Source: Lingula anatina (Eukaryota > Animalia > Brachiopoda). From it: a stretch of DNA of 64,000 nt. Of the stretch, positions 20,601 through 49,931 are shown one piece after another (the stretch's first letter is position 1; each line of letters opens with the position of its first letter). The translations under genes were made by a program, and so were the position numbers. The stretch is taken from positions 13,516,001 through 13,580,000 of the forward strand of contig CM120640.1 in NCBI GenBank assembly GCA_051362555.1, given 5' to 3'. The notes beneath the pieces are model-generated. The model did not search any database. It saw only the letters and a list, made by a program, of their open reading frames with translations, and was not told where the DNA came from.

Positions 20601-21085
20601 TCAATTGTAATTCAAGATATCCATAAAAACTAAAATTGTATGAAGTTTCACTTATACATTTGTAATATGCACAAGATATGCTACCATTAAAAAAAAATTA
20701 TGGCTGTATGATGAAACCTCTTATAAAAATTGCGTATGCATGCCAAATATTGCTGATAATTGAAAAATGATTGGCATTTCAGGAAGGTGAAAAGCACTTT
20801 AAAACCTGTGGATAAAAACAAGAAAAAATTTACCACAAAAAGGAAGTATTTAGATTTTTTACCCACAAGTAACCCCAGGAGTTTTTAGCTTATAACCATA
20901 TATTTGATACAGTTAGTGATTACAAGTCCTTAGTTATTGAAAAAAATCACTATATTTGTAAATTTGTTCAACATTTTAGGACAATGAGTAAAATGGCAAC
21001 ATTGCTGCCCAGTTATCGTAGTTACAATAAATGTCCATGTCTGGTAATGCAAACTGCATTTTGTACTGCTTCTACTTTAGCTGTA

Positions 21086-21120
<35 letters not shown>

Positions 21121-24100: not shown

Positions 24101-27100
24101 CCTGGGTTCAGGTCAATTTGAAATTTGATTTGTTGTGAAATGACTTTGTTTTCCTTTCCATGAAACATTTCTGCACTTGCATTGTCCACATAATGAGCTA
24201 GACTTCCTCTGTGGTTTTCTTTGAAAGATCTTACATTTTTGTCACAGTTTTTCACAAAACTGATCAACATTTTGTCTTCTCTTTTGGTAGCTTTAAGAAT
24301 CTGGTCCCACAAAGAAATTGGCACATTAAAAATGAATTGATTTGGATTGAAGTGAAGAACCTTATCCTTATCAAACCGCTTCTTGGAAGATGCCTTCACC
24401 TTTGAATCTATGTCAAATATTTTCTTGTTCCAGATCAAAGAAACTTCCTTGGAAGTGCACATATTGTCCTCAACAACTTGATGAGGGACACTTGGTCTTT
24501 CACATACCCCAAGGTGGTTATATGGTAGCTGCATTAAACTTGGTGACACAAATTGCAGCCCGGGAGTTGTGAGTTGTATGCTTCTACCATCAATTCTTGT
24601 CACGACTGGGAGGATGGACATAAATTTGTTTTCTTTCAGCATCAAAGAAAATTTAAGCATTTTGCAGCTTCTATCAAATTGCTTTGCTTTAAGAGCACTG
24701 CTATTTGCTCTATCACATATTTCTTGTATCTCCTCTTGAGTGTATGGTGGCTTTTCCTGATCCTCAAGCATTGCAACTACCAAACGATGGACAACAATAT
24801 CAATGTATCGTCGGATAGGAGATGTGAACCTTGTGTACTCTGAAAATTCTAAATCAAAATGTGCCATTTCATCATCAGGTATACTTCCAGAGCAAACCAT
24901 TTTGGCTTTTCTTTGAATTGCTATCCAAGCTGTAAATGTGCTGCACTGCAGAGGATGAAGCTCCTCATAGGCAAAAAGGCGTCTTAGAGTTTCAAAATGA
25001 CAATCTGGGTTCACTGCTTTGAGATGAGCTTCTTCCCAGGTGCTCTGACGAATTGGCATATAGCGTAGATTTTTAGGGTCTTCAAAGTCAGGATATACTC
25101 TTCTAAGCCATTGTCCTGGTTTACTGGAATGCATGGCAATCTCTGCAAATGAATCTTTCCACATTTCCAACTGTGAAGAGTTGGGTGAGGGCTGAACTCT
25201 CAAGGGAACATGCATTCGGTACTTTCTGAGCAATTCCTTTGCAACTGTTTTATTAGTTAGTAACATGAATTCTTCGACAACACTTTCTGCCTTGCTACCC
25301 AGCAGAACATCCCCAAGTCTCTTTGCTGAAAGTTTTTTGGCAACTTTGTACAGCAGTCTCACAGCTACTGCAATTTTTTTATCCTCTTCTGGGACATCTG
25401 AAGAACTGATGTACGCATTTGCTTCTTCATATGTTAGCTGTCTTTGTGATCGGATTGTTGTTCTCCTTATTTCTGTAGGCCTGTCGGCATACAGTTCACC
25501 ACTTTTTCTGTCTGCATAAAAGAAAACAGATATAACAGGCCTCACACGGCCTGCAATCAGGCTGCAAGCATGAGCACTCAGCTTCTCTGGTAACATTGGC
25601 ACAGGTGGATCTTCAATGGATGGGTAGTATGTTTCTCCCCTCTTTTCAGCTTCTGTGTCAATTGGATTTCTTTCTTGTAAATTGTCCTTATTCTTCTTCA
25701 CTTTCAAAGATACATCAGCAATGTGAACACCTATTCTTATGTCTTTTCCTCCCAAATATTCTACACTCAATGCATCGTCAAGATCTTTGGCTCTGGGAGG
25801 ATCTATAGTGAAGGTAGCACCTCCATCCTCGTCCTCCTCAAGCTGACTGAAGATCTCTTCATTGGACATTGCTGTGATGGTATCATTCACTTGTGCAGGG
25901 AATTTTTCACTTAAGTTGTACTGTATCTTTAAGATATCCAATCTGCTTTCCCAGTCTTCTGACACAGCAAGCTTCTTAACAACAACACCAAGTGGATAGT
26001 AGTGATATCGATCCCATTGCAGGTAGCGAACAACAAACACTGTATGCTCACGACTATGAACATTCAACAGTTCAGTTTCTTTATGAGTTGGCTGTCCTGT
26101 GCTGTCAAGGCTATAAATAGCAACTTCATTTTCATTTTCAGCATCTTTGTTGTAAATGTGAATCTTTGGAAAAGTGTTGCATAATGGCAGCATTAGGTTA
26201 GCCCTAAAATGGTCTGCAATACAAGCAAATCTTGCATACTTCCTCACTTGAGTTTGCCTCCAAACACCTATGACTTTGCCAATGTACACATCAGCACCCT
26301 CTGGTGGATTCAGTAGTTCAACAACAACTTCAGATTCATTGAAAGCCATACCACACTTGTTTCTGCCAAACAACTCTATCCTCTGAATAGTCTCTGTTTG
26401 ATCAATAGGTACAGCATAGGCCTTTTGTGGTGTTTCAAGGTACAAAATGCACTGCTTAAACTGCTCTGGATATTCTTGCAATTTGTTTCTCAGGTCTTCT
26501 TTTGGGAGGTCTTCATAAAATGGTTCTTTGTCTCCTATGTACTTATCAGCTAGATAATTCTGATAAGTTTCATCTAGAAAATCCTCATCATCTATGATTT
26601 CATTAACCAAACCACTTTCACAATACAGATTTCTACCCTTTTTCCAGTCATTTGGATTGTCAAAGATATTGGCATTACCTGAAGTTGGCTTTTCATCATC
26701 TCGTTTAAAATCAAGATGTGGTGTTTTCAATTTACTTTTTGTCCTCTGTAGATTGACCTTCATGTTTTTTACAACCTTTTCAGCCAAGGAATCTGGCTCT
26801 GTGCCAATTTCCCCAAAGTCACCTTCACTGTCACTTAAAACACCTTTATCCGCAGAGATTCCATCATGAGATAGCTTTTTACGTTTGCCTTTTATCACTG
26901 GTGGCTTATACTTTGCACATGGTTGGGTAAACATTTGCAAGTTGTCAATTTTCTCAAAACATAGATCTTCTGGGGAAAGGGTTCCTTTCTCATCACAAAT
27001 TCTAAAATAGTGTTTCCAAACATCATTCTGGTTTGCTTTTGACAAAAGAAATGGATCTCCAAACACAACAATGTGTAAGCGTGCACAGGCAAACACCGAG

Positions 27101-30100
27101 TTCAAAGTTTTTCTTTCTTCCAAACTTCCAAAGTCTACTGGACCTGTCACATAGCGTGGGGTTCTCACAGTACTCAGCAGAGTACTTTCAAATTGTGTGC
27201 CTGCACATGAAATAAACATTTTTTATATTAAATTCATATCTTTATTTTGGCTATTCAAATTAAAATCTGACCAAATTCAAAATCAACACATATGACCTTT
27301 TGTCAGACTTCTGACTGTAGTAACTTTCTTATATATTGGGAAATATTTTACATTTAGGCTTCATTCACATGGAAAGTCTATTTTCTAAATTCTATTTTCT
27401 ATTCACGGTATGACTTGTGATCACGGTCTGTGCCCTGAATATCCCACGGCGTAATTACTGGCAGGGCGAGCCAGTTACTTATACGAAGCTGTAATTAATT
27501 CTCCGCTGTGCTCCGAGGAGATTCTGATACCTTGACATATGCGCAGTAGGAAGTGATCATGATCCGATGGCAAGTGATGCGGCAACGGAGGATGAGATTT
27601 TATAGAATGCGAGCACAGCCGAGAATTAATTACAGCTTTGTATAAGTCCCTGTGGTGTTTCCAGACCTCTTTTGTAGTAAAAGCTTAGTGCACTGGGACT
27701 GCCAGGATATTCATTCTCTACTTCTAGCTTGCCATCATAAAAAGCATTTGACAGAAAATGTATGATGTCAAAAGATTTTCCTGAGAGCCTTTTCAGAGGG
27801 AACAGGTACATCTGGTTTTCATTTTCCTGCAGCATCTTCAGCCTGTTTGTCAGAAAGTGACTAAGCTCATTTTGTGATCTTGATCTAGGTGTCACGTGTA
27901 CACTAGGGGACACACACATCTCGGAGGAGATTCTGATACCTTGACACATGCGCAGTAGGAAGTGATCATGATCCGATGGCAAGCGATGCGGCAACGGAGG
28001 ATGAGATTTTATAGAATGCGAGCACAGCTGAGAATTAATTACAGCTTTGTATAAGTAACTGGCTCGCGCTGCCAGTAATTACGCTGCAGGATATTCAGGG
28101 CACAGACCGTGATCATAAGATACCGCAAATAGAAAATAGATTTTAAAAAATAGACTTTCCATGTGAATGAAGCCTTAATGTTAGATATTAATGACAAGGG
28201 TAAAATGTGACAATCTTTTTGATTTAGAAAAGAAAAAACACACCACTTTCTGTGTTGCACTTTTTGAGCTTTGCAAAATGCAATGAACAAGAGACCCAGC
28301 TTTGCTTACTAGTGGTCACATTTTTAAAACTCTTTGTAGCACATAATAAAAATGGTGGTGATTATTAAGCATTATGTAATATTGCATCAAAATTGACAAA
28401 AAAAAAACTATTTTGGGCACTGCTACAATATTGACCACTAAGGGAAAACCATGTTACTTATGATTCTCAAACTTACAGAAAAGATTTTTATGTCTGAAAT
28501 ACAGCTTGAGTTGGAAAACCATTGTTTATTACCAAGAGCACACTTTTTGCACATGTGCAGATGTTTGACACCTGTACTGGTGATGGCTACATGTATATGT
28601 GTCTGTCCATAAAAACTGTTAACCTGAGGTATATACCTGACAAAAACTGACAAAAATTTTAAGAAAATGGGGCAGAAGTTAAGTTTGCCCATACAGTAGA
28701 TAGAGATTTCAACCAAAAAAATCTATTAAATAAATGTATAAAAAACATCATATTGATCAAGAAAAACTGCACACCTTGTCTTGTGTATTAGCTGCTGATT
28801 AAAAAAACAAGAAATAAATGAATGAATGTATCAAACACACCTGGAACTGATTCTGGAGACAAAATGGTCACTTTTTCTCTTATTGGCTTCGGGAGACCAT
28901 CAAAGTATTTCTCAAGAAGGTTTACCTGAAATGAAATGAAATGGTAAAAATTTATTACTGCCATATCCTTTATATACAAAAGGTGTCACAGTTAAGGATA
29001 CATAAAAAGAGTAATGTACACATAAAAGGAGTTATGTATTTTGGATAAATATTAATGTAAGTTATCAAAAATGACTATGCTGACACATGTACTTCAAGTA
29101 AAAACAATTATTAAATTGACAGATAGACAGTGATGATGAATTTATGACATGCACAGCTTTGGGGATTCTTTACTTTTTTTGCAACATTACATGTGAATAT
29201 ACCTGCGCCAGAAAAGGAGAAATAACAGCTATGTCTTCACTGAAAGCGGCTATTTCCTGAGCAACTTCAAACACCTCTTTTGCCTCGGCTTCATTGAAAT
29301 AAGACAGTCCCTGCGGTGTTTCCAGACCTCTTTTGTAGTAAAAGCTTAGTGCACTGGGACTGCCAGGATATTCATTCTCTACTTCTAGCTTGCCATCATA
29401 AAAAGCATTTGACAGAAAATGTATGATGTCAAAAGATTTTCCTGAGAGCCTTTTCAGAGGGAACAGGTACATCTGGTTTTCATTTTCCTGCAGCATCTTC
29501 AGCCGGTCTGTCAGGAAGTGACTAAGCTCATTTTGTGATGTTGATCTAGGTGTCACGTGTACACTAGGGGACACACACATCATGGGGTCAACAGTCAAAA
29601 CAACAATTGTCTGCGTACATTCGGCATACATCAGTGGGATGATACTCTCAGTCTCATTTGCTTTGTCCATGCCATCAATTATCACATGGGTAAAAGCAGG
29701 GAATTTGTTGACATCTTTCCTCAACAAGAGAGAGGCTGTCAGTGTTGTAACAATAATTCGGTGTTCATCTACTTCTTTTTGAGTTGGACTGGGATGCTGA
29801 CTGCAGTACTGCACTACTTCAGGCTGTAGGCAGACAGGGGAGGACAGACCTAGTATCCTTAGAGGCCTACTTGTATAGGGAAGCATTCCACCACTAATCC
29901 TTCTGTCCAAATCCATGACATATGCGTCCACATCACTATAAGAAATATTGAAGTTATTAAGATCATTAGGCCAGTTGGGTAATATGTAACTAATTATAAG
30001 TGATAAAATTATCATTTTTACGTTACTTATAATCATTATTATCATTATTAATCTTTTGTGTTTGTTCTTATAATTTTTATAGTGCATTATTAATTACAGT

Positions 30101-33100
30101 ATAGCTCAGTGTGAACAATACAAGTGCACAGGGAATCATGCCTCTCTTAGTAATCTAAGAAAGAAATAAGTAGAATTCACCCTCTGGTATACATCTATTA
30201 CGAAATCACTGCAGGTGCAAATATCTATAATAATTACATTTCAAAGGCTGAGAGTACCTTGACTTTTTACAGCATATGAGAACCTTTCTCTTCATATCTT
30301 TGGCCAGGAGAGCTATGGCCTGCTGTATGGTAAAGCTCTTTCCTGATCCAGAAGGTCCAGTCACAACAAAAGGTGATACGTGTTGGTTCCCTGGAGCCTG
30401 ACACAATATGTGTTCAATACATTTCCTTTTCTCCTCTGACAGCTCATTTGGCTTGCATCTAAAATTTAAAAAAATCCCTGCAGCATTTTTCAAATGAAGA
30501 TAAATAAAATTATAACATTTATTTAAATAAAAAAGGAACACATTATGAAGTCTTTTGAGAAGCATATATTGCACTGAATAGAGACAAAGTATTTTGGTAC
30601 TAACACTGTAAAAGCAATTGAATAGTGCTGTTATATGCATTCATTCTAGTATAATCTTCCATAGTTTATATATAATAAGAATTTTCAACCCCATACATGA
30701 TATGAATAAATCAGTTGGATACCATGGATGTACGTGCAATGCTGGAAATATATATGATTATGAAGATGATGACCTTCTTCCAGGCTTGCAGCAGCCTTTT
30801 TATATTCAGGTGAGAATTACAGTCAGAATGGGACAACTGAAGCTGATTCCACTGACTGCATTTTAGGGAGAATTAACCACAGAATTAAACCAACCCAGCT
30901 AGTATGTGTGAATCTGAATGTGCCCTCGAAGATTATAGGTGAAAACTCATTTCAGGCTACATGTTTGAGTTATAAATGATCATCACAGATATATGTTACA
31001 AAAACTTAACAGTGAAAACATTACAGAATAGTGTAGAGTTTTCATCATTATAAGTATACCTTAACTTTCCTGGAAGGACAGCAGCCATGGGAACATTCCA
31101 ATCAGGAAACAGCAAACAGTTCTGAGTCCTTTCAAGTGACTGGTGCATCAAATCAAAGAGAGTGGTGTTGAAAACAAACTGCATCCTCAAAGTGGCAACA
31201 TCTCCTTCAAGTTTCAACCTTGTGGCACATTTCTGAGACATCCTTATATACAGAGCTTTTCTTGGAGTTCCTGTTGCAAGATAGTCAGCATAATTTAGCA
31301 CTGTGGCTTTACATATATGCCCAGTGTTGATTTCTTTATCAGGCTGAAGGTAGACTTTGCTGACAGCTGTGAGAAGGAGTTGGCAAAGGGCTGGTTCCAA
31401 ATCGCAGAGGTCTTGCTTTACCTCTCCAAAAATACAACCATCAGTCTCATGTTTGCTCTCATGAATCTTCACAGGAAGTTGTTTGTGAAGCTTGAGTGAT
31501 AAGATAGTGGCTTTCCTAAAATTAAATGTTAGTGCAAATATATTTAAGCCAGTTCACTACACAAATGAAGAATGATAATTACAATGTCATGTATATAATA
31601 TGGAACAAAGTGATTTTTTCACTCAAAGTCGCAGAGTTTAAGGAGTGTAAAGACAATTTCTAAGACCCCAGATGGAACAATTTTAGCTTTAATCTGAAAA
31701 ACACATACCATTATGTTTAAAAAAATCTAACAAATTGACCAATGACAGTTATCAACATTATTTTTGAAATCTTTTTCAATAGTAAAAATCATCAAATACC
31801 CATGAACAATGTCCATCTCTTTTCTTTTTTGCTCCTCTAAATATGTGTGCATCATGCTCTTATAGGAGAAAAAGTTGATTTCACCACTGTGACTATAACA
31901 CAGAGGCCAATCCACAATGGGGTACTTAGCAGCCAATTCTTCAAATACCGAAGATTCTGTTTCATCGCTTCCATCCTCAGCATCACAATTCATGCAAGTT
32001 GGTTGCCTTAGCCTTAGGCTACAAGTAGAACCAGCTTGTGAGACATCCTCTGTGTTAAATTTACATGCATCTGTCTCAGCATCCACTTTCAGAACCATCC
32101 GCAGCACAGGTCGGTCACCAAAATCCAGGATGAGCCACTGATCAAAGGCGCCTTGCTGTCCATGACTAGTAAATTCTACACCGAATACATATTTGCTGCC
32201 ACTGTCAGAGTTGAACTGAATTACCTGTGCATTTTCACTTTTGTTGATGAAGTGAAAGTGACTTCTGAATCTGTCCCTCAGAAGATACACTTTCTGCAAT
32301 CTTTTGGTCTGAGAAAAAAAAAGGTAAATTGATTGATGAGAATATATTTGGTGAAATATGATCAGAATCATAGAAAAGCAGCAATATAACAGTGTTGAAT
32401 TTATAATAATATCAGATCATGTCACTGATGCTTACTTTATCCTTTATTTTGACCTGAAAATTCCACTGAAGTGTTCTCCCCTCATGAACCTGATGCTGCT
32501 GATGGAGTTCCATTGGTCCAGTTGTACTACCAAGGCTGGGTTTAACCTCTACCTTTACACCCGGGACACAAGTATCAGTGACCTTAGGAGGAAAAATTAT
32601 AATTCTACAAATAAAAATTTTGTGTAATCATTTTTTCATGTTAGTATTCAATGTTCTAGACCATATCTTATTTTTATTACCATCTACCATATCAAATACT
32701 TCAGATAATCATAAACCCTTCATTCATTCTGACATCACTTTTAGATGTTGGAATATGATTTTATGACTTGAACGTTCTGTACATATATCTTTATACTGAC
32801 CAACTCTTTTAACTCGTTTGGTTTTGTCTGACAGTGAAGTATATTTTTATACAGTTCATAAAAATCCCTGTGCTCTTCTTTCTTAAGACTATGAAATGCT
32901 TTGTTTTCTCTCTTGCGTTCCTCCCACTCTTTCAATTCCTCTCTACTATGGGCATGTTGGCAAAAATTGTACTGTGACACAACATTGGAGTACTGGCAAG
33001 ATTTATTACTTATGTGCCTGAAACAAAAGGGCCATAAAAGCAAATTTATAATCTTATAAGCTGAAGCACATAGAACTTCAACCTCAATTCACATGTCATT

Positions 33101-36100
33101 ATTCTAGACTATAGCCTGGGTGCCCTATATATCCTACTTTTATCTGTTTAAATTCTTATATTATAACTCAAAAACATATATTAATGATGACAAATGCAAC
33201 AGTGCAACACCCAACATTGCAAACTGCAAATACAGTATCAAGAGAAATCATCCAAGATAGCAGTAGTAACAATTCAAGCTCTCGGCATGGCAAAACCAAT
33301 GTGAGGTATGTGGGGTTAACTGTTCAGCAAATAGGGTGATAAATATACACACTGAGAAAATGGTGTTAGAGAGACATACATAAGTGACATGCAAAATATA
33401 GTAAATCTGTACCATAATTGGACAGAACTGATTGAGAGACAACGACCAAGAAAATACAAATGGATAAACTCTACCAGACTGAGGTTAATTTCATTCCTAA
33501 CCATGTACACAGCACTCAATAGTCATTATTTCTGATCCCAGTCTCCTCCCACTCCAGTGAAACCCAGTTTCATTTTACTCTAAGTCAAAACACTTTGGGC
33601 TATCTCAGATGATTCCCATTTTTCCTAATGATATTTCTTATTCCAGATATTATATGGTAAACATAATAACAACTGTAAATGCAGTGAAAGAGAAAAAAAT
33701 TCTACTAACTGGTCACAGAGTGTGTACTGCTGTGCATCTGGTGGGCAGCGGTGAGTCCAACTCTGACTTGCCCTCAGTTGCTGAAGGTGTTTCTCTGAGT
33801 TAAGATGTTTATCAAACTCAGACCTGTGTTTCCACTTCTTGCAGCACACACCACACTCATAAAAATGAGCCTGGGAAACTGGTATTTTTGCACTGACATG
33901 TTTGATGCTAGGCTTTTTGCTAGGACTTCTTGGGCACTGCTTTACTGTTTGAAAATATCTTTCTGATGCTTGCAAAGCATCAGTTAACTCAGAAACTGAA
34001 ATTAAATAAGATCCATAGTCATTTTAATGAGCAAAAAATTAAAAATTACACCCTATGTAAAGATAACATACCAGTTATAGTACATCAAACATGCAACTAT
34101 CTAAGATTTACTTAACCTTATAATCTTCCTATGAGATGCATATACTGTAGTCCTTTGGGTTCTGAACAAATGCAATGAGTCTGTACACTGGGGAATTTGA
34201 ATTTAACAAGAACACTTGTAAAGCTTTGTAAAACAGTTATCTGTATATAGACTGTAGTTACTTGCTGCTTACCTTGGTTTCGTTTCATCCATCTCCACAC
34301 CAACATCTCTTGCTTACTATGGGCATAGTTACATGCCTTTTTTATACAGCCCCATTTTGTATTCAGATATTTACATAAGCGTGGTGTAAAATACGTTTGT
34401 GTATGTGGTTTTCGGATTTGGACATACTGACAGGAGGGTTCAACATTATCCTTACAAACAAAAACTGGATTCCAGGTATGATTTCTTTTTTCACATTTAT
34501 TTTTTTGTCTTGCAACCAATCTTTTGTGATCTTCTTTGTAGCACTGACCACAAGTTTCAAATATCTGAAATTTTCTGAACTCCTTTTCTTGCACAGAAGG
34601 AACTTCTGATGAGGCAACAGCACATGCAGATGAAACAGGTTCAGCAGGGTCTAAATTTACACCTGGGATTTTCACTAAGGATGTGACAGATGACAGAGAT
34701 GCTATGGAATCTGACCGTGATAGATTTTCTCTACTCAAACCACTAGTAACGTTGGCATATGTCCTGGTATCTACCAATTTCTCACTCATAATGGAAGAAT
34801 ATTCTTTTTCGGAAGAGGCAAGGTCTGGTATTTCTTCACTGAATGCCTCACTTTCCTGCAAAAAATACCCATTGGGGCCATTCAGCATGAGAAGACCCAA
34901 GTGCTAGCTGGTTCACAGCCTAAATATGGTGGACCTACATGAAAGGAAGACCGCTTAATCCTGTAATGGTCTCTTTCACGCCTTCCAACATGGCATCCCT
35001 GCAGGGGCACAGTAATAAAACCTCGTCTCAATGCGACCAGGCGAGGGAAGACATGTGGGAAGGCATATGAGAGGCGGAATGACCATTACAGGATTAAGCG
35101 GTCTTCCTTTCATGCAGGTCTGCCATATTTCGGCCCTGGACCAGCTAGCACTCAGCTCTTAATTCTCAATCTGAATGGCTCCATTGACTTCAAAACAGCA
35201 TGGCAAGCTTGAAAATCTTGTTTGATCAAATTATATTTTTACTTTCAATTCAACTGCAAAACATACAAATAGCACTATATGTCATTCTAAAAGGAAAAAT
35301 TAAGTTGACAGCAAAAGTTATACATAAAAATATCAACTGCTACAATAACGAAGGTTCTTACATGTGTTTCTGTAAAACAAAATTCTTGACACTCTTCCAA
35401 AATGGAATATTTGAGATCATTTAGGAAATCTTCATTCTGAAAGAAATGAATATTTTGATCCTCTTATTGATAATTTCATTAAAAAAAGAAAACACACTGA
35501 AAAAAAAATGCACTTCAAGGCACCAAAATATTTGATTTATGGTTTTGTAAGTGAAAGTAAACATTAAGGTTGCATTTTAGCTTATCAGCACAAAAAAAAA
35601 AAAAAAAAAAAAAAAAATTGACATTTTATAAAACTGAGATATTTTGATCAAATCAAGTTTTGGAAATTTCCACTAGATTTTTGAACATTTGGAACATTTA
35701 AAATTAATAAATAGAATTGTGCTATAAAAAATAGAGAGGTCTTTTTACAATATACAATATGTAGGTGTTCCATAGGTCCCCTCTACCCTCCCAAAAAAAA
35801 GTAAATAAAGGTTTGGAAAAAATAATGAAATAAAATAAATAAATAATTGTAAATAACTGAATTGTAGCTGCCTTACCTTGGAATCACATTCAATTGCTAG
35901 GTTAACTGCATCCATTGCTTCAGAATATTTTTTTTGGCATCTTAATACATTTGCTTTCCAAAAATGCAACTGCCCCATGTGCCCATTTGCACCATAATCC
36001 ATACATTTGCTTTGAATGATTTCAATGCCTGAAAGTGGCAAGCCAATAAAGTATGAAATTAAGCAAAACAACAGATTCAGAGACTGATTAATGCTAAAAG

Positions 36101-39100
36101 AATTAAATGACTTACAGGCTTTCTGACACAAATTCAGAGGCTTAAAATTGGTTTCATGTCACCACTGCACTTTTACATTATAAAACAAAATTTCCATACC
36201 ATCTGTACAGGCTTTTAAAGCAGTTTCCAGATGATGCCCCTTTTCCTGACAGCTTTCTTTATCAAATCCCTAAAATGACATTTTTGTTTGATTTTACACC
36301 ATATGGTTTTATAGGAGTAAAGTTGGAGAACATTTATAAAATGTTTTTTTTAATGTCTGCCTGGGTAATAACTTATATTCAAAAGTTCTACAAATTTCAT
36401 CAAAATGTACAGTAATGGCTTGGTATATTTTTGTATAGCAGTTGTGGTGCTTTTGATGCATAGAATTTAACCATATATAAGGTAGTCTGGTTTTCAGTTT
36501 TGTTGCCATTTCACTCAATAGGATTGCTCTTATTTAAAGAAATTAAGACTTAAAAATACAGTATCTGTAAAATTCACAGTTTTCCCCCATTGAAAAGATC
36601 GAGTCATTACCCTAATATGGTAAATTTTTGCATTAAGGATATTGTTACCTTTCGTCAAAAACTCCTTATTTAATGCCTTACATACATGTACATTCTTTTG
36701 GGTAATAAATAAATGTTCAGTGTTCGGTTACTAAATTAATTAACATATACACACGTCATCTTACTGACGATTTCATAATTGCAATTTTGGGATAAAAACT
36801 AAAAAAATCAGTTTTTCAAATTTCTCTTTTACCTGAACTCCCAACTGTCATGTATTAATGCTGATTTAATGACACCATTTAGTACTACAAAGCCCTGCCA
36901 ACAATTTTTCTTGAAAGTCTTAGTTCAGATTTTATCATTGATAAAGCAAAATAATGCTTTTGGTAAATGAAAATCTGTAATTAGGGGCTCATAACTCCAT
37001 AACAAAAACATATAAACTAAAATGACAGCACGGGATTGTAGCCTATACTCTCCTGGTTAACTCTGCCAATGTTCATGATTAAATCTTATTCAGGGATGAA
37101 GTTACGCCCAATACCAATTGCTATCTCACTTCAAAATAGAAAGGTGTTTAATTTACAATTAAAAGTTTGAGTTGCCCATGTTTATACGTTGCAGTGAAAA
37201 AATATAAATGCTGATATTTTATATTTTGAGGGTTTTTTCATTGTTTTAAATCAGCACAAAGGCAGATGCATTGCTGAATAATTAGATGCAGGAAAAACTC
37301 ATTTTCGGTATCTGGATGATAACAAAGGGTTACAATAACCTTTACTTATTTTTCATAAGGGGGTGAGGGGTGATTCTTCACATTACATGATCTAATCTAT
37401 TGCAAAAAGTCTTCTTGGAAAAAAAAAAAAAACAGTACCATGTTGTACAAAATCTCAGCATAAGAAACATGACATTTTGCAGCCAGCTGCTGTGTATCAG
37501 GACACTCCTTTTGAAGATGAAGCAAGTATTTTCCAAGCTCTGCTGCATCTTGGTAGATAAACATTGCTCCAGCCTTGTCCCCTTCAATCAAGGTCTTCCT
37601 GCCACATTCCTCCAGCTTCTTCAGCATTTGTTTAGCTCTTGCAAACTAAGAGAACACAATTATACAATCTCATGTTTTATTTTGTATATTCCAAAATACT
37701 GTAGAAGATATTGTATTAAAAATCAGGTCAGGTCTAGGATTTTTATTACAAAGGAGGCAGCATCTGTTCCATTGGTGTACAGCACTTAGTTTGTCTTACC
37801 TCACAACTGTCATATTCTCATGTTCACTAAAGACATTTTACTTTGAAGTTACATATGAAGTAAGCGTAGATTCCCAATAACACATAACCACTTCTCAAAG
37901 AAAGTCAACATGCCAAAGGATTATTCAACTAAATAACATCACTTGGTCAGCCAAAAAGCAGGTTGTAAACTTGGCCTATTCATTTGTCTCTTCTGTTCAT
38001 AAAAGTCTGCCTAATCCATACTAATCAATGTACAGAATGATGCATATATAACCACTGCGCGTGTGGAGGTGTCTTGATAGTATGAAGGTTCATTGGTCTG
38101 AAAAATCTTAACATATTCAGAATAATACTGTTTTTTAATCAAGGGTTCCTTGGTCCGAAGATTCTATAGTGAACCTTTGGACCAATGAACCTTCGGACTA
38201 TTGCTATGGCCTAAGCACATAATAGCATGTTAAATATTCAAATTAGGGTTGGCAGAAATGACCAAAGTTTATAAACAGCATAGAAAAAAACCCAGAGAAT
38301 ATCTTTTCAAATATCATATTTTTTTAAGTATGATATGATACCCTTTGGTATGTCTTTAAGTTATGCTGTTTGAAACTATATGACATCACATTTTTGTCAG
38401 GTAGAAGTGGCAAGATTTAAAGTGCCTTCATATGTCAATTTAATTGGGCCTTCAAAAAATCAGATGATTGACCCTATATAATACAACACATACATTGTCT
38501 CTGAACATTTAAACCAATAAAACAAGTTTGTTAGTTTTGTAGGTCCTTAGGTTAAAAGTCCCAAATAACTGGCCTATTTGCAAGGGTTTTATAGTATATG
38601 TCCACTTTAAAGATACTTACTACTGCAGGCTGGCCTTGGCTTTTTGTCAACTGTCCAGATATGAGTGGTAAAACACATTTTCTATCTGAGGCCAAGCTTT
38701 TATCCCAGAAACCAAGGATACATGATGCTATTTATAAAAAAATCCAAAATAATTTAAAATAATTCCATACAAGGAAAATAAACTGTTTATGTGATACTTC
38801 AGTTGATGATTCCAGTGAATAGGATTCCAAACACTAAATATCATGTTATCATATCACCCTATGATAGAGTTCCAAGAACTGAAACACTTATAGCACAATG
38901 GATTTCTACTACCATATTCTCAGTAAAACTGCATTAAAATTGGTGAACGAATAACTATACAGGCCTAAAGTGATACTGACATGCACTGTCCAAACAGGAC
39001 AATTATATAATGACCTTTTTATATCTTAGATAGAATATTTTATGAATAAATTTACTAGTACATATGTTTATTATATAAAGATTATTTTTTCATTCACAAA

Positions 39101-40012
39101 CGGCTAGGCAACATAATTACCAATTAGAGAAATGGTAATGCACCAATTGCATTGTATCATCATTAATATATCATATTGTACAAGGCCATGACAATCTATG
39201 TACCAGTACAGAAATAAATTGAAAATTAAATTTATTAAAATATATAATAGCACCAGTGTTCGATGTATTAATAAAGTAATTGATTCATAAGCAGTGTTTT
39301 TCTTGCCATTGGTTTACATATAAATAGGTAAAAATATATTTGGCATTTCATTTAGCAATGTTAGTATGATACACAGGAACATGCACATATATACATAATA
39401 ATATCAGACATACAGTAGAAACGCATACCTTTGAAGAGATCTTCATAAGCTGACAGTGCCACACTCTGAAATTTGCAAAATGCACATGTAAATCTATTCC
39501 ACAGCAGAAAGTGTGTGTAGGTCAAAGGACAAATTAAAGGTCATATTTAGATCCATGATCTATTTATATGACCCTCCAAGCATACTAGTATTATAATAAT
39601 CTCACAATGCTGATTTTTTAACTCTTCTTTGTAAATTTAAAGTAAAAAAACAGGTTTTGGAAGTTGTGGGTCTTTAATGATTAAGGTTGTGGTGATAATC
39701 TGGGATGGCAACAGCTTTGTCAGCAACACCAGCAGCTACAAGTACCATCAAAATATTATATAGAGCCTCAAACAGCTTAAAAAGACTTACCAAGTCTGAA
39801 TCGATTTCTGCCTGATTTTTGTAACGATTTGCTCGCATTTTATGTAACTCTGCCAACTTTTGGAAAAAGCTCAATGTTTCCCGAGACTGAATGGACAGTT
39901 TCTCCTTGTTGATTATTTGATTGGCATATTTGATGCCTTCTGAAAGCTGTCGGAGAGATTGCCTCTTACCATCTTCCAAGTACCTAAGTAGATTTCTCTC
40001 ATGTTTTTCCAT
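14687..40012 (-). CDS. HELZ2: HELZ2-like helicase with zinc finger domains (TPR-like, CCCH/C2H2 fingers, degenerate SF1 helicase 1, RNB exoribonuclease, SF1 helicase 2 with duplicated C-terminal RecA domain)
   Basis: Phase-consistent exons (minus): 40012-39791, 39465-39429, 38727-38621 (uncertain), 37645-37439, 36269-36200, 36028-35877, 34855-34273, 33962-33710, 33017-32801, 32582-32436, 32308-31800, 31515-31060, 30458-30258, 29935-29203, 28925-28841, 27200-23408, 23159-23053, 22587-22309, 22076-21942, 21828-21173, 19725-19489, 19244-19043, 18782-18591, 16676-16435, 16193-16040, 15812-15645, 15441-15331, 14814-14687. Motifs: GPSGSGKS, TFTIDPPRAKDLDDALS, YTRFTSPIRRYIDIVVHR, GPPGTGKS, IVDESG, GDHKQL, QYRMHP, QGGEWD, INVALTRAR. 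Confidence 0.9.
16999..18084. mobile_element. PIF/Harbinger-like non-autonomous element rich in GAAT/ATTC motifs (outer copy)
   Basis: Ends TACCCCCCGTCAAAC...GTGTGATGGGGGTA, with TTA on both flanks. Confidence 0.7.
17360..17803. mobile_element. Same-family element nested in inverted orientation inside 16999-18084
   Basis: 17361-17570 is the reverse complement of about 17930-18084, and 17700-17803 is the reverse complement of about 17000-17110. TAA on both flanks. Confidence 0.7.
19805..20441. mobile_element. MITE-like element with ~55-bp imperfect terminal inverted repeats
   Basis: TAGAGGGTACTGGAGGAGACAGGATTGTGCTGGAAGTG ... CACTTCCGGCACAATCCTGTCTCCTCTGGTACTCTCTA. No TSD other than a possible TA; superfamily not assigned. 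Confidence 0.75.
23408..27200 (-). CDS. HELZ2: Giant (3.8 kb) HELZ2 exon containing the RNB (RNase II/R family) domain
   Basis: Lies inside ORF 23323-27219. Acceptor TGCAG| at 27201 and donor AG|GTATGT at 23408. RNB motifs DPPRAKDLDDA, VEEFMLLTN, HFDL and FTSPIRRY. Confidence 0.92.
27357..28174. mobile_element. PIF/Harbinger-like MITE carrying a captured copy of a HELZ2 exon fragment (Pack-TIR-like)
   Basis: ~155-bp TIRs GGCTTCATTCACATGG...CCATGTGAATGAAGCC and a perfect TTA TSD. Internal 27645-27920 matches 29306-29581 (5 mismatches in 276 bp) and is flanked by a 137-bp direct duplication of element sequence (27511-27647 / 27920-28056). Confidence 0.92.
28343..28700. repeat. Dispersed repeat fragment shared with ~42810-43000
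   Basis: cattatgtaatattgcatcaaaattgacaaaa and downstream sequence recur at about 42845. Boundaries are approximate and the family is unknown. Confidence 0.5.
34874..35182. mobile_element. Fold-back MITE (GGGGCC...GGCTCC ends, 3-bp ATT flanks, Harbinger-like)
   Basis: Long inverted arms: gtgctagctgg...catgaaaggaagaccgcttaatcctgtaatggtc versus gaccattacaggattaagcggtcttcctttcatg...ccagctagcac. ATT on both sides. Confidence 0.8.
38080..38212. repeat. Short dispersed element built from direct and inverted gaaggttcattggtccgaa units
   Basis: Units gaaggttcattggtc(c/t)gaa and their complement ggaccaatgaaccttcgga. Second copy at 40160-40298 and a remnant near 865-895. Confidence 0.65.
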
Positions 40013-40159
40013 CCTCTGTATTTTGCTATATCTTTACTGTCCCTTCTTTGAAAAAGTGTAATTGTTAGATACTTGCATGGTACCTGAAATGAAATAATGA
40101 AAGAGTTTGATTTTAAACAGATACTAACCCCTTTGGGCTGAAAAAGCTTGCATCTTTAG

Positions 40160-40298
40160 TCCGAAGGTTCATTGGTCCGAAAAGTGATAACAATTTCATC
40201 GTTTTTTTAATCAAGGGTTCATTGGTCCGAAGGTTTTATAGTGAACATTCGGACCAATGAACCTTCGGATAATTGAAGCTTTGGACTATTGCTACGGC
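40160..40298. repeat. Second copy of the gaaggttcattggtccgaa element
   Basis: Colinear with 38080-38212. Confidence 0.65.
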
Positions 40299-40573
40299 AA
40301 TTAATATAGTACCACTCGCTTTAACGGGAACCCCGGGGGCCTATATGCCGCAAAAAGCACGATTTCTACGTGTCGCTTCGGTATTATAGCTGATTTGCCA
40401 CAAAAAATCTTCATATTTTCCCGTCTTTTAGGATATTTAGTCCTCAACTAATTTGAATTTATGTTTTTTTTATCATACATGGTGTTCTCTGTCGAATTTG
40501 TTGGTTATATATAGTTACGACACCGTCATAGTTTAATCATTGTCGCTCAGTAACCCCTAACCTCAGTAGGATC

Positions 40574-42043: not shown

Positions 42044-45000
42044 CTTTTCTGCCCCATTTTGGTAATTCTCTTAGTTATACTACTTGAAACTATATGCTGG
42101 CATTCGGTTGGCTTTTGTGGCAAAAATTGACTTTATATGCATTTTATATAGCTAAAAAATATCTAAACAAATATGGTCGCTATTGACCTAACCTCCGTTA
42201 CGAAATGACTCATTTTTCATTTGAACATTGGATATGTTTGTGCTGATTGATCTATGCTCATATCAAAACAGATTGAGAGCACTTTGTTAATAAACAAATA
42301 GTATGATATAATTATATGTCTGTCCCCAATGATTCCTAAAATATTTAAATTGAAATATCTCAGGCTTTGTATTTATAGAAAACGTTTGACTTATTACCAA
42401 TACTGTTAGCACCGCATTTTCTATAATTAAAGAGAAATCTTAAATTGGTAATAATTTTTTGAATACATACAAAATCTTAATAATTGAATCAAATATGGCA
42501 CCTGTGACCTTTGGCATGATTGAAATATAACCTAATTTAGATGTTACCTAACCTCCGTAACGAAAAAAATAGGGTATCGTGTTTACACGTGCATATGTCT
42601 TTAAATACAGTAATGGTGTAGGTTAAAATTCTCCTACTACTCTCTGAATACCCCTTCATGAAAATAATATAAAAAGTTTCCCAGTTTTGCATATTTCTGC
42701 ATTTCTCGTTTTGGAATTGTACCCTTTTTCATGGAATGGCGGTGTAGGGTTAGGTGGCATGAAGCTCGGTGGTAATCAAATTTTATAAAGGTTCATGTTA
42801 TTAATATTAGATAATTAAAAATTGGTGGTAATTTTACAGTTAATCATTATGTAATATTGCATCAAAATTGACAAAAACCTACTTAGTGCACTACCACCAC
42901 AAACGTTATTAAAAGAAAACTGTGTTACTTATAATTTTTTGACTTACACGAATAATTTTTAGGGTTGACATACAGCTCAAATTAGAAAACAAGCTCTGTT
43001 GGAGTCAGGATTATCATTTTTTATTGAATTAATGCAATTTTAATGAAATTTTCATTTTTCTCATTCTGGCATTTTCCAAGTCTAAACTTAAACTCTCATG
43101 GCAGAATTGACAGTATCCTATTTTGTGCATTATTATCTTTTGCTTTTTTGTCTTTGCATTTGACAGCTTTGCTGCCTTGTTAACTGTATACAAATTATAT
43201 ACAACGGTCCTGCAACAAAAATAAAAAATCTTTTCCCATTTTTTTTTTGTATAATAATCATTATTCTACTTAATTTTTTGTGATTAGATAGGCATGTTTA
43301 TAGGGTGAGGGAGATCTGTTTGAAATCGATGTTACAATTTCACCCAATAATCTGCTGTTACATCGTCAGCTCAAATTGACAAATTCCCCAAAATGTATTA
43401 CAGAAGTGAAAGCATTATCTCATAACATGACAATGTTCATTTCCTCACTATACATGTATAAGCAGATAAGAAAATATCCTAACGTATCCAACCCTGTAAA
43501 AGTTACACACTTGAAAACATTGTTTAGAGAAGATTTATATCATATTCTCTTGAAAACAATTGCCTGTAATTACAAATATGCAATTCATAACTATGTAGGT
43601 TTTGTGAAACGAAACTGAAAATTACCCACTGAAAAATAAATGGAAACAAGAAATAGTTCCAAATACAATCCCTATACACAAAATAGTCACCCGAGATACG
43701 TTGTCTATATTTCAGGTCTCAGCATCCATCAATACCATTCACTGAAGTCATGCCTGGTGTGCAGGTGGGGAGTGAGAGCGTTCTGGCTAACAGTTCTGCA
43801 TCCACGGGAATTGTTCAAGTATATTTATTTCCATAGGGCGGTAATTCTACTTAATCGGAGCTGCTGACAAACCCAATTCTTAGTAAGCCTGGCCTATTGC
43901 CAACTGACTGTCGATCTTGTGATCAATATCACGCACGGTACTTGTGATAACATTTTTGGCAACTTTGGAAATTAATTTATAAGTCACCTGTTGATAGGTT
44001 TTAACAGAAACAGCGATTAAACAATTATCCCTGTGCTTTATCTTTTGTCAGTCGATTGATAGTCATCTCCGTGCCATCCTTGATTAAATCAATTTACAAA
44101 ACAGGCACTATGCGGGCTCACAGTTGTCACTTGTGAAAACTTCAGATGATTTCTGCCAATATCTCCCAGATTTAGAGGGGTGGGGCATTTTTGATTTCTA
44201 CAGATAATAGTGGCGCTATCTCTCCTAGATGCGCGCGGTGTGCAAAACAAACTTGCTTTACTCACTTCGTATTGCAAATATTGTGATGCGACAATAGCCT
44301 GTGAACGTCATTCACCTGTGTAAATGGGCTTTAAATACATCGATAACTACAAAAACCGTCTTTAGCTTAAGCAATCTAATGAATGCCACCAGCCAAAAAG
44401 CTACTTGAAGGGCAATAAAATGATAAAATGTTGATGATTTTATGCAAGGTACTTGCGTTTTGTTCTGTGATCCTCTCCAAAGGTGTTTATGCATGTAGGC
44501 CTTATCATAAAATATGAAATAGTACTTATTTAATCAATCTGTCTGTTTGTTTACAGCATTGCCTGCATTGTTGCAATGATCTGGAGATAAAACCCTAGAG
44601 AACAAAAAGTCGTCGGACCAACAACGAGCTATAAGCTACAACAAACGAGTCGCTGGCAAGCCAACGCTGTGGGCCGATTACGGCGTCACTTGCATGTCAC
44701 GTGAAAAAAAACTGCGGTAATACCCACGTTATCAGTGGTGAGACATATTACTTATTTTTAATCGAAACTAAAATAAAAGACGGTATGTCAAGTGTACAAA
44801 CGTTGATCACCCAAACAAAATATAGAAGTGCATTTCACATGGTGAAGTATCAAAAAACTGAATTGAAAGAATGCTAAGTTGTATTCAGTTTTTTTTTAAA
44901 CATATACGTGCTTAGAACAACAATCCACGACTGTCTCAATTTTACATACATTAAATGTTCACCATATTTATACATTGTGTAACGTATGTTCCGGGCCGTA

Positions 45001-45854
45001 TAATTTTAATTTCGATATTGCGTTCCCATATATTTTGTAGTGATTAAGTCACAGTAAATTATACACTCTATTTGACGTGAGGATGTTTTTATAAATATTT
45101 AAGCTGTAACTCAAGGGGCTTTGAGTCATGGTTAATACTACGTTTCACATGTTTCCCAGGAAAACTGACAGACAGTTTTATCTTGCCCAAGTACTTGGTG
45201 AACAGGAAACAGGGTTCTCTGTTCCTGACTGAAAATATAGTGTGATTCTATTACAGGTTGACATTTCTGATACAATAATTGAACCACATATGGAAAAGAG
45301 TTTATTTAATGCTTATTTTACTGTTAGTAGGGTTTATTCAACTCCCCATTTTATAATATTCAGTGTCAAGCAGATTAAAGTCGTTTAAAAATTAACTGCT
45401 CTGTATAGAAGATTATCAAATTTTTTTACGTTGTACCTGTAGGAGAAAAATAACAGAACAAAACCAGTGATGATTGAGTTTTCAAAGTGAGTAAAGGTTC
45501 CAAGTGAAACTATGATGTGAGACCCTAAAATAATCAAGCATAGTTTGTAATCTGTGCACTAAATATTTTAAAGAGCATGCCCGTGACCTCATATATTGGG
45601 TATATTTGGTTTGAGTGTGATCAATGATAAGGTTTGACCTGTGTACAACTCCATTGTTTAACCAAGTAAAGTTAACCTTAGTTCAAGATAACTTGAAGGG
45701 CTTTGATCCGATTAAATGATTTAAGTTAAATATTGATACACACTTCATTTTAACGTACATGTAGCACTGGTTTTGCGTTAATACTGATGGACTAAAGAAC
45801 ATGTTAAAACTTGCAAGTTTAAAGTAAAACTATAAATTTTCAATTATGTCTTAC

Positions 45855-45945
45855 CTCTGTCAAGAAGGTTATGTTCTCTGTCTTGTCTGTCCTGTTGCGA
45901 CTTTTCTTTCGGTTCCATTCCTCTCACCCTTTCTTTTGTAGGCAT
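45855..45945 (-). other. Candidate first exon of the HELZ2-like gene (uORF-bearing)
   Basis: Minus strand reads ATG...MPTKERVRGMEPKEKSQQDRQDREHNLLDR, then GAG|GTAAGA donor in phase 1, compatible with the acceptor at 40083. It lies just downstream of the ISRE and kB motifs. Confidence 0.4.
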
Positions 45946-46375
45946 TTGTCCCTAAATGGGGGCATGTTGGTAAAATAGGTTAATAAAACTAGCCCGTAAC
46001 TTCAGTTTCGGTATTGGATACAAAAACTTAATCGTTTGAACATATGTTGAGGACGCACTAAATGACAACCAGAACCTTCCTAAAAAAAGTTAACACCTGC
46101 TAATGACCGTCGGAGAATATCAGAAACACTTCGTTGTAATGAATATCTTTCAATTGACCTACGGACATAAAAAACCTACTATACGACTATACGCACTCCC
46201 CCGCCAACGATCGACATGCAAAGGACACAAAATAATTTACATGTCAACATGAACTTAAAATATCCGTATATCTTTGAGAAACTGTTCCACACCTGCTTTA
46301 AGTTTGGAGAACTATCTGTTTTTTTAATGCAACATACTAGTTCGATCGTAGCAGAATGATTCGATTATACCGGGT

Positions 46376-46389
46376 AGTTTCACTTTCGG
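46376..46389. promoter_or_regulatory. ISRE / IRF-binding element
   Basis: AGTTTCACTTTCGG (minus strand GAAAGTGAAACT) matches the ISRE core AGTTTCNNTTTC. Confidence 0.55.
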
Positions 46390-46619
46390 TGGTCTGTCTT
46401 CCCGTAGGATCACACTCCTTTGTGTGGTAGATCCAGGTCTTACGATATTGAAAGCATATCTCAGCCTTTTAGTTACATCAGTCATCAAAAATTTACTGTA
46501 CCTGTGTGAGCTGTAATATATCCACCTGGGACTTAATCGACCTGTTTACATTCGTATATTTTCAGACACATATCATGCAGATGTCAGATGCGTGCGCAAG
46601 CACATATTTCCTCACAACT

Positions 46620-46630
46620 GGGGAATCCCC
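46620..46630. promoter_or_regulatory. NF-kB (Rel) site
   Basis: GGGGAATCCCC is a palindromic match to GGGRNWYYCC, about 240 bp from the ISRE. Confidence 0.55.
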
Positions 46631-47649
46631 TTTCAGAAGTTAATACAACATCGATAGTATTTTGCTTCAAATGGACAGAAGTGCGTAGAACTGGCATAAG
46701 TGGGTTTCAACTCAAGAGTGTCGCTTGTGATATCTTTATGTCCACACAGAACACAGGACAGGCACATTTATATATTTTTATTATAACTATGGCAAGCCAA
46801 AGGGGAAATAATTGCAGAACATGTTTATCACAGCCCAGAACCAATAAATAGTATTCAGAAATATGATTTCAATGCCAAAAATCATATCTATACACATATC
46901 AGGAAGTAAATTTATACTTCAGAAATGATTTCCTCTTCAGAAATATCCTACATCATAGATAAGAAACATTTATCATTCATAAGAACTGAAGTTCATGTTG
47001 CAGAAAAAAAAACAATATCAGAATATTTTAGAACATGTTGCAGGAAAAAAAATCACATCAGAATTTTGCCAGGAGACCACGTGACCAAGCCGGTAACGTC
47101 ATTGACATGTTGTAAAGTCCATAAAGTGATTTTTTTTCTGCAACATGTTCTAAAATATATATATATATGTTTTTAGGTCTTCCCTTTTAAAATGGTGGAT
47201 TCATTCCCATGTCTACAAAAACTATACAAATTGAGAGAAAGCACTTTTATTTAACATCTTTCATACACCATTTAATACCAAACTGAAAAATAAACATAAA
47301 ATTGTGTATTACTTTTACATACAGTTTCAAAGGAACATAAATTTACATGATGAACAGAAGTTATTACTAAATGTTTAACACTGTACTTATCTTCAAAATC
47401 CTTACAGGAAAGGGTCTACATATTTTAAGAGTTTTTTAAAAGTATTGAATTTGATAGGGAGTTAACAGATTTCTAAATGATACACAATATATAACAATTA
47501 TTATATGGCAGGATTTTTACACCCATATGTTTACAACTAGTTTTATCAACTAGTTTTATCATTTATTCAGGACCACTAATTTCTCCCTATGCTTTTAATG
47601 GTTTTATGAAAAATCATTATAATTTTTCATTAAGACATATTCTTAAAAT

Positions 47650-49540: not shown

Positions 49541-49931
49541 TGAAACCATGGATTCTTACAAGGAACAAAAAGTACAATAACTGCATTTATTTTTGCCTTA
49601 AAATCTTCAAATTTACATGATCACTTATATTTAGACTGTTGTTACACCTTTGAGTAATATCAAAGACAAACCCCCAAACAGTAGATATAAGATGTCATAC
49701 AACTAACTTCTTATACAGATATAGGTATACATGCACTAACCTTTATTTGGCAGTTTCACACATGCTTTTTTTTTACCACAAATTGCTCAATTTCACCAAA
49801 TGAAAATTCACCAAAGAAAATGAATCACCTCTAAGATGTTTGATCATTAAAGCTTAGTTTGAAACCTTGTTGTCACAAGTCATAAAAGCTGAATAATAGC
49901 TGTTACACCATTTCCATATTTTGTGGTCTTT

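What the first reader, a model, noticed from the sequence alone, without database searches (positions are those of the whole stretch)
45855..46630. ISRE plus NF-kB module upstream of an invertebrate HELZ2-like gene
Seen in sequence: AGTTTCACTTTCGG (46376), GGGGAATCCCC (46620), and weaker IRF-like sites TTCAGTTTCGGT (about 46001) and TTTCTTTCGGTTCC (about 45903). These lie within about 750 bp of a candidate first exon facing HELZ2. Known background: vertebrate HELZ2 is an interferon-stimulated gene, and IRF and Rel factors exist in invertebrates that lack canonical interferon. Inference: this is an IRF/Rel-driven antiviral promoter, suggesting ISG-type wiring in this lineage.
Basis: partly seen in the sequence, partly recalled or inferred. 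Interest (0 to 1): 0.7.

Follow-up and report, generated by a model that had tools for sequence, protein, structure and literature searches.

The report
Antiviral-type promoter of brachiopod HELZ2
In the lamp shell Lingula, the start of a transcript that likely belongs to a relative of the human antiviral RNA-degrading gene HELZ2 is flanked by near-perfect copies of the two DNA signals that switch on antiviral genes in vertebrates, so infection likely turns it on, an untested but expected case because oyster HELZ2-like genes already respond to viral mimics.

Summary
All four motifs lie where stated. The window is Lingula anatina; the gene is a full-length, minus-strand HELZ2-like paralog. Two motifs are strong. 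The ISRE (46376) scores 14.05 of a possible 14.23 on a published matrix, best of 127,978 positions. The kB site (46620) is a perfect consensus. Both together within 1 kb have a chance rate near 1.5e-4 (nominal). The two weak sites fall below threshold. If 46553 is the start (4 reads, one run), kB lies at -77 to -67 and the ISRE in intron 1 at +167. No read bridges these exons to the first coding exon (40083), so the link to HELZ2 is inferred. Binding, induction and conservation are untested. Lingula has 4 IRF and 3 Rel domains on record; oyster HELZ2-like genes are poly(I:C)-induced; IRF/NF-kB motifs are enriched at induced Nematostella genes. Verdict: a likely real IRF/Rel promoter, a clean new example of known invertebrate ISG-type wiring.

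The parts
46620..46630 (.). Perfect kB consensus site (GGGGATTCCCC on the transcribed strand), -77 to -67 from the 5'-most read-supported base
   Evidence: the only non-coding GGGRNWYYCC site in the window
46502..46553 (-). Exon A, 5'-most read-supported non-coding exon (donor CAG|GTACAG at 46502/46501); 46553 is the likely 5' end
   Evidence: 4 X8 reads with 4 different starts join it to exon B and all stop matching at 46553 (34 bases each); 3 X9 loose ends carry the same junction; splice sites read out
46376..46387 (.). Near-maximal ISRE / IRF-E in intron 1, +167 to +178
   Evidence: 14.05 of 14.23, rank 1 of 127,978
46001..46015 (.). Weak IRF-like half-sites in intron 1, below threshold
   Evidence: score 4.34; 2 mismatches to IRF-E
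45855..45951 (-).
   Evidence: covered in 3 of 4 runs (X7, X8, X9; none in X2), with a sharp edge at 45855
45903..45916 (.). Weak IRF-like site inside exon B, below threshold
   Evidence: score 7.72
45950..46700 (.). CpG-retaining patch typical of an unmethylated promoter region
   Evidence: CpG o/e 0.96; HELZ2 body 0.25, SUGP1 body 0.19, SUGP1 5' end 0.86; the repeat-rich intron 40000-45000 is also high
45199..45228 (-). Start of exon C (acceptor TTTTCAG at 45229); its 3' end is unknown
   Evidence: 5 X9 reads leave exon B into a sequence matching this place (25 of 30 letters by eye; its last 11 letters occur once exactly in the window)
43606..43622 (.).
   Evidence: score 11.05
39790..40083 (-). 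Exon D, first coding exon of the HELZ2-like gene (acceptor TTTCAG|GTAC; annotated ATG at 40012)
   Evidence: covered in 1 of 4 runs (X7)
15347..40012 (-). HELZ2-like coding region, approximate: TPR-like head, zinc fingers, helicase 1, OB, RNB, helicase 2

Best explanation
This is likely the infection-inducible promoter and leader of a Lingula anatina HELZ2-like gene: a perfect kB site lies about 70 bp before the read-supported first exon and a near-maximal ISRE lies about 170 bp after its start, and these are predicted to be read by the animal's own Rel and IRF factors. Shown: the motifs, their scores, the spliced exons A and B, and the HELZ2 identity of the coding gene downstream. Inferred: that 46553 is the start; that exons A-B continue into coding exon D; that RIG-I-like or STING signalling activates Lingula IRF and NF-kB, which would bind these sites directly, with no interferon needed, and raise a low basal output of a helicase-RNase predicted to degrade viral or mobile-element RNA. 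The weak ACCGAAA half-sites and the 43611 site may be auxiliary or chance.
For: ISRE is rank 1 of 127,978 positions. The only non-coding kB consensus in 64 kb lies 233 bp from it; joint nominal chance 1.3-1.5e-4 per kb. The gene class was predictable beforehand: human HELZ2 is interferon-induced and its long-isoform promoter has ISREs (PMC10516660, PMC5316548; passages). Spliced reads place a 5' exon between the two motifs; the CpG profile fits a promoter. The SUGP1 5' region has neither motif, and the adenosine kinase region has only the kB match inside its CDS. No reads lie on the ISRE or kB bins, and no copy of the region exists elsewhere in the window, so nothing marks them as repeat-borne. 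Exons B and D appear together: both covered in X7, both absent in X1, X4 and X5. Lingula has 4 IRF, 3 Rel-homology and 8 RIG-I C-terminal domains (PMC8662601 suppl. table 2). Oyster IRFs activate ISRE reporters (PMC5557890); shrimp IRF binds an ISRE in the Vago4 5' UTR (PMC4602278); 8 of 8 HELZ2-like rows in the oyster table of regulated genes are 'sustained' after poly(I:C) (PMC7064767 suppl. 5A).
Against: No listed read joint reaches exon D. The 3-base overhang past the exon B donor, seen in one X7 and one X8 read, fits exon D but fits a nearer acceptor at 45436 equally, since both begin GTAC; 5 X9 reads go to exon C instead. The 5' end rests on 4 reads of one run, with up to about 9 unmatched bases each on average, so a further upstream exon is not excluded. 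No TATA or Inr-like string was found upstream. Each motif alone is within window-wide chance (14 and 17 of 100 shuffles). No induction, binding or conservation data; the one collection scan found 0 matches. In Nematostella, 40-60% knockdown of each of five IRFs did not reduce cGAMP induction (PMC8713801). The oyster table lists only regulated genes, 2 of the 8 rows are also 'sustained' in the seawater control, five have consecutive ids and may be pieces of fewer genes, and orthology to this Lingula paralog is unresolved. Low expression in 4 of 7 runs fits induction but equally fits tissue specificity or 3' bias.
Confidence: 0.62

Rival explanations
1. The promoter is real but only one motif, or neither, is used; the rest is chance in an A-rich genome.
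For: Each motif alone is reached by 14-17 of 100 shuffles. ISRE-like strings are over-represented here (20 seen, 6-10 expected), partly because TTTCAG splice acceptors mimic them, as at 33992. The scan reads very many windows. NF-kB, not IRF, was needed for cGAMP-induced genes in Nematostella (PMC8713801 passages).
Against: The ISRE is near-maximal and purine-rich on the transcribed strand, so it is not an acceptor. Both sites flank the 5' exon of a gene whose homologs are known induced genes; joint nominal chance about 1.5e-4.
Confidence: 0.15
2. The sites are functional but set basal, tissue-specific or repressed expression rather than antiviral induction: constitutive IRF1-type activity, or binding by Blimp-1/PRDM1 (GAAAG-type IRF-E) or Schnurri/HIVEP zinc-finger proteins (kB-type sites).
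For: PMC7819612 (passages) proposes constitutive IRF-E-driven defence in invertebrates. Reads are present in all 3 runs of one study and absent from 4 runs of two others, which tissue differences could explain. The PRDM1 and HIVEP overlap is recalled, not tested.
Against: Pairing of kB with ISRE is the usual signal-responsive arrangement, and oyster homologs are induced.
Confidence: 0.13
3. Exons A-B-C form a separate short non-coding transcript, and HELZ2 starts at another exon nearer 40100 or in the intron.
For: No listed joint reaches exon D; X9 reads go to exon C, whose end is unknown; the GTA overhang has a rival acceptor at 45436; repeats mask 40100-43400.
Against: Exon D has a strong acceptor and needs an upstream exon; no other unique exon signal was seen; B and D are present or absent together in 4 of 4 runs; HELZ2 is the next gene on the same strand.
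Confidence: 0.1

Closest known systems
Human HELZ2 long-isoform promoter (PMC5316548; passages seen)
   Same: HELZ2-family gene with ISRE matches in its control region; interferon-responsive in reporters.
   Different: The human ISREs were found at marginal significance (q 0.14-0.58); the Lingula site is near-maximal on the same matrix and paired with a kB site. Lingula's gene is one of at least two lineage-specific paralogs, and no interferon is known in invertebrates (PMC7819612).
Oyster poly(I:C)/OsHV-1-induced HELZ2-like genes (PMC7064767 suppl. 5A rows; bioRxiv 10.64898/2026.05.15.723513 passage)
   Same: Lophotrochozoan HELZ2-like genes within an IFN-like, RLR-linked response.
   Different: Induction is measured there and promoter motifs were not described in what I saw; here the motifs and exons are mapped but induction is untested. 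One-to-one orthology is not shown.
Shrimp Vago4 ISRE (PMC4602278; passages seen)
   Same: An invertebrate ISRE at or downstream of the start, bound by a native IRF.
   Different: The target is a cytokine-like gene and binding was shown by EMSA; here the target is an effector RNase and binding is untested.
Nematostella poly(I:C)-induced promoters (PMC8476169; passages seen)
   Same: IRF, NF-kB and STAT motifs enriched in the 500 bp upstream, first exon and first intron of induced genes.
   Different: Genome-wide enrichment in a cnidarian; HELZ does not occur in its main text (0 occurrences). Those genes were TATA-enriched; none was found here.
Vertebrate kB plus ISRE promoters such as MHC class I enhancer A / ISRE (recalled)
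   Same: The same 11-bp kB word and a closely similar ISRE (recalled, from no call).
   Different: Here 233 bp apart and on opposite sides of the start; no SXY module was looked for; convergence on short consensus sites is expected.

Membership tests
ISRE/IRF-E-driven antiviral promoter | Two GAAA half-sites two bases apart, above a published ISRE matrix threshold | tested here: met
   14.05 against threshold 10.51; strict consensus match
ISRE/IRF-E-driven antiviral promoter | Site lies near the transcription start or in the first intron | tested here: met
   115 bp into the intron after the 5'-most read-supported exon; the start itself rests on 4 reads
ISRE/IRF-E-driven antiviral promoter | The start belongs to the HELZ2-like mRNA | tested here: inconclusive
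   No listed joint to exon D; overhang fits 40083 or 45436
ISRE/IRF-E-driven antiviral promoter | IRF protein binds the site and is required | not testable with these tools
   4 IRF domains on record for Lingula; no binding data
ISRE/IRF-E-driven antiviral promoter | Induction by dsRNA, virus or cGAMP | not testable with these tools
   Run conditions are not given; induction known only for oyster homologs
ISRE/IRF-E-driven antiviral promoter | Motif conserved in orthologous promoters | tested here: inconclusive
   No genome held; 0 matches in metagenome contigs; reads do not cover either strong site
Interferon-stimulated gene in the strict vertebrate sense | Induced by interferon through ISGF3 | not testable with these tools
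   IFN homologs are described as vertebrate-only (PMC7819612), so this can work like an ISG without being one
NF-kB (Rel) target promoter | GGGRNWYYCC site near the start | tested here: met
   46620-46630, -77 to -67; consensus recalled
NF-kB (Rel) target promoter | Rel binding and requirement | not testable with these tools
   3 Rel-homology domains on record for Lingula
HELZ2 | Helicase - OB/CSD - RNB - helicase order | tested here: met
   Pfam RNB 207.8 bits and OB_HELZ2 84.9 bits (cut-offs 29.3), AAA_11 86.4; collinear hits to mammalian HELZ2; 24 of 25 hits carry OB_HELZ2
HELZ2 | Four RNB catalytic aspartates | tested here: met
   All four present, including the one that is Asn in human
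HELZ2 | Both helicase domains keep Walker A and B | tested here: not met
   By eye: helicase 2 has GPPGTGKS and VDES; helicase 1 has Walker A but its Walker B reads IIDG, so it may be inactive
HELZ2 | N-terminal zinc fingers | tested here: inconclusive
   Cys/His patterns and weak hits to HELZ2 finger regions; no Pfam finger family above cut-off

The most novel reading that the evidence does not exclude
HELZ2 was already a direct IRF plus NF-kB target in the last common bilaterian ancestor, and the Lingula promoter preserves that pre-interferon wiring in near-consensus form; vertebrate interferon was later plugged into existing ISREs of such effector genes. Brachiopods would add a phylum with no cis-level example in my searches.
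Probability: 0.3. Interest if true: 0.55.

Novelty: new member of a known kind. Interest (0 to 1): 0.38.

Why it matters
If it holds, it gives a concrete, mutable cis-element for the open question of how invertebrates switch on ISG homologs without interferon: directly through IRF, through NF-kB, or both. The sites are strong and close to a mapped first exon, so a small reporter or binding test could decide it. The concept itself is established in oyster, shrimp and sea anemone; the gain is a new phylum and a named effector, not a new mechanism.

Tried and rejected
No whole genome is held, so other Lingula ISG promoters and the paralog's promoter could not be scanned. The run search listed no indexed RNA holder; its 9 runs were added by species label. 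The first lay was dominated by repeat-derived reads, and 14 joints were not shown. X2 gave no reads, which is no test. Reads at 46790-46930 and 47285-47394 carry many differences and loose ends and were rejected as repeat copies. A metagenome scan for a 21-base stretch over the ISRE gave 0 matches. Dinucleotide shuffles under-predict A-rich cores, so Markov backgrounds were added. The careful tree did not finish; the quick tree is used (37 rows; P0019-P0022 and P0156 left out beforehand). The idea that the motifs lie in the SUGP1 3' UTR was rejected: its last coding exon and a poly(A) signal end near 49590, 3 kb away, and no reads cover the motifs. Papers: Gerdol 2018 on Lingula immunity is not held; HELZ2 + Nematostella gave 0 papers; searches listed no paper on brachiopod ISRE promoters or invertebrate HELZ2 promoters (listings only, top 7-20 rows; subscription journals are missing). 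bioRxiv supplements are closed, so the oyster Helz2 figure was not seen. No earlier finding of this scan lies at this place.

Full report
Observation. All four strings are present once each at the stated places. The strict IRF-E consensus (recalled) matches once in 64 kb, at 46376-46387. With the HOMER ISRE matrix printed in PMC5316548 (passage) this site scores 14.05 of a possible 14.23 and ranks first of 127,978 positions; 3 positions pass the threshold: 46376, 56286 (an intron of SUGP1) and 43611. The kB consensus (recalled) marks two sites, 46620-46630 and one inside the adenosine kinase CDS. Window-wide, neither motif beats chance on its own (14 and 17 of 100 shuffles). Their joint presence in one given kilobase has a nominal chance of 1.3-1.5e-4 on a background trained on the CpG-rich regions, or 4-6e-3 with the loose ISRE core. 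The two weak sites score 4.34 and 7.72, below threshold, though they share ACCGAAA with the strong site (3 of 5 copies in the window; post hoc).

Organism and gene. The intronless adenosine kinase at 7746-8780 is 100% identical to a Lingula anatina protein, and a Lingula model from a scaffold of the same length, P0156, maps exon by exon on 40012-26764. That model stops early. The window holds a full gene with a TPR-like head, zinc-finger region, helicase 1, OB_HELZ2, RNB and helicase 2, running to about 15350. The RNB keeps all four aspartates; helicase 1 has a degenerate Walker B by eye. A second Lingula HELZ2-like protein is 37% identical and is its sister in a quick tree (SH-aLRT 99); placement among mollusc and vertebrate groups is unresolved. 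The upstream gene on the same strand is SUGP1-like (named from recalled motifs; no Pfam hit) and ends near 49590, followed by a transposon.

Where transcription starts. Nine raw RNA runs were offered by species label only; I laid seven. Over 37300-47500, unique coverage of the first coding exon appeared in 1 of 4 runs (X7), and repeats dominated the tables. Over 45745-47394, 3 of 4 runs cover 45855-45946 with a sharp edge at the donor. Four X8 reads with four different starts join this exon to 46520-46553, and three X9 loose ends show the same junction. The letters fit a GT-AG intron 46501-45952 with small allelic differences. All four joined reads carry exactly 34 matched bases and stop at 46553, with little read length left, and nothing unique lies further up. 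The start is therefore likely near 46553, but a further exon is not excluded. On this model kB is at -77 to -67, the ISRE at +167 to +178 in intron 1, the 46001 site near the end of intron 1, the 45903 site in exon B, and the extra ISRE at about +2.9 kb. CpG o/e is 0.96 here against 0.19-0.25 in gene bodies, although the repeat-rich intron below is also CpG-rich.

The weak link. No listed joint reaches the first coding exon at 40083. Five X9 reads go from exon B to an acceptor at 45228. One X7 and one X8 read match three bases past the donor, as expected if the next exon starts GTA then a base other than A; 4 of 71 pyrimidine-rich acceptors downstream fit, among them 40083 and a nearer one at 45436. 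The link to HELZ2 rests on strand, adjacency, the acceptor that exon D needs filled, and joint presence or absence of exons B and D in 4 of 4 runs.

Mechanism. Most likely, nucleic-acid sensing activates Lingula Rel and IRF proteins, which bind the kB site just before the start and the ISRE just after it and raise a low basal level of a helicase-RNase. Lingula has 4 IRF, 3 Rel-homology and 8 RIG-I C-terminal domains (PMC8662601 supplementary table 2). Oyster IRFs drive ISRE reporters (PMC5557890 passages), and shrimp IRF binds an ISRE in a 5' UTR (PMC4602278 passages). Binding and induction in Lingula are untested. Against a simple IRF model, IRF knockdowns did not reduce cGAMP induction in Nematostella (PMC8713801 passages). 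Rivals are chance for one or both motifs (0.15), basal or repressive use by IRF1-type, Blimp-1 or HIVEP factors (0.13; the last two recalled), and a separate non-coding transcript (0.10).

Comparison with what is known. Invertebrate HELZ2 is known from corals and molluscs (PMC10516660 passage). All 8 rows annotated HELZ2-like in the oyster table of 1,587 regulated genes are 'sustained' after poly(I:C); 2 of them are also so in the control, and 5 have consecutive ids (PMC7064767 supplement rows and passages). Oyster Helz2 rises at 24 h of herpesvirus infection (bioRxiv passage; supplement not seen). IRF, NF-kB and STAT motifs are enriched near poly(I:C)-induced Nematostella genes (PMC8476169 passages). 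The shrimp STING preprint (passages) and PMC8998645 (passages) added only background. My searches (listings) showed no description of a brachiopod ISRE promoter or an invertebrate HELZ2 promoter; the main Lingula immunity paper was not available.

Verdict. It works like an ISG promoter on sequence and position; it cannot be filed as an interferon-stimulated gene, and its activity is unproven. New member of a known kind; interest 0.38.

Noticed in passing
window 45945, 45918, 40078 and 40036-40034 (minus): If exon B joins exon D directly, three upstream ATGs are all in frame with the main ORF and are closed by one TAA 21 nt before the annotated ATG: an in-frame upstream ORF of up to 46 codons, or an interrupted N-terminal extension. 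Four of five read variants in exon B change the residue in that frame, which argues against a constrained coding exon. Human HELZ2 also has unusual initiation (GUG).
   Followed up: partly
window 29170-30093 (minus): Helicase 1 Walker B reads IIDG rather than DE, while the other Lingula paralog has IDEAG; this paralog may have one dead and one live helicase.
   Followed up: no
window 27626-28078 (minus): Partial, 98%-identical duplicate of part of the helicase 1 exon inside an intron; the last helicase 2 exons also appear twice (18762-18589 and 15813-15643; 16677-16582 and 15451-15347).
   Followed up: no
window 26764-23323 (minus): The public model P0156 leaves the 3.9-kb RNB exon after about 150 codons and so misses the RNB and second helicase; the reading frame is open through the exon.
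   Followed up: partly
window 47660-49540: Non-autonomous transposon between SUGP1 and the promoter: 15-bp perfect inverted repeats (47685-47699, 49524-49538), 4.8 copies of a 146-bp tandem unit, and a terminal hairpin; resembles Helentron/HINE elements (recalled).
   Followed up: partly
window 7746-8780 (minus): Intronless adenosine kinase, a second Lingula copy (57% to the other), possibly a retrogene, near an MRPL24-like exon on the opposite strand at 12107-12568.
   Followed up: no
window 45855-46553: Reads of study P3 differ from the window by several substitutions and a 4-base deletion in the leader exons, pointing to high polymorphism or a divergent population; useful for a motif-conservation test.
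   Followed up: no
window 40560-42060: Expressed repeat family in the long intron, with inverted terminal segments and partial ISRE-like strings (score 9.11 at 40606, 41960, 41999).
   Followed up: no
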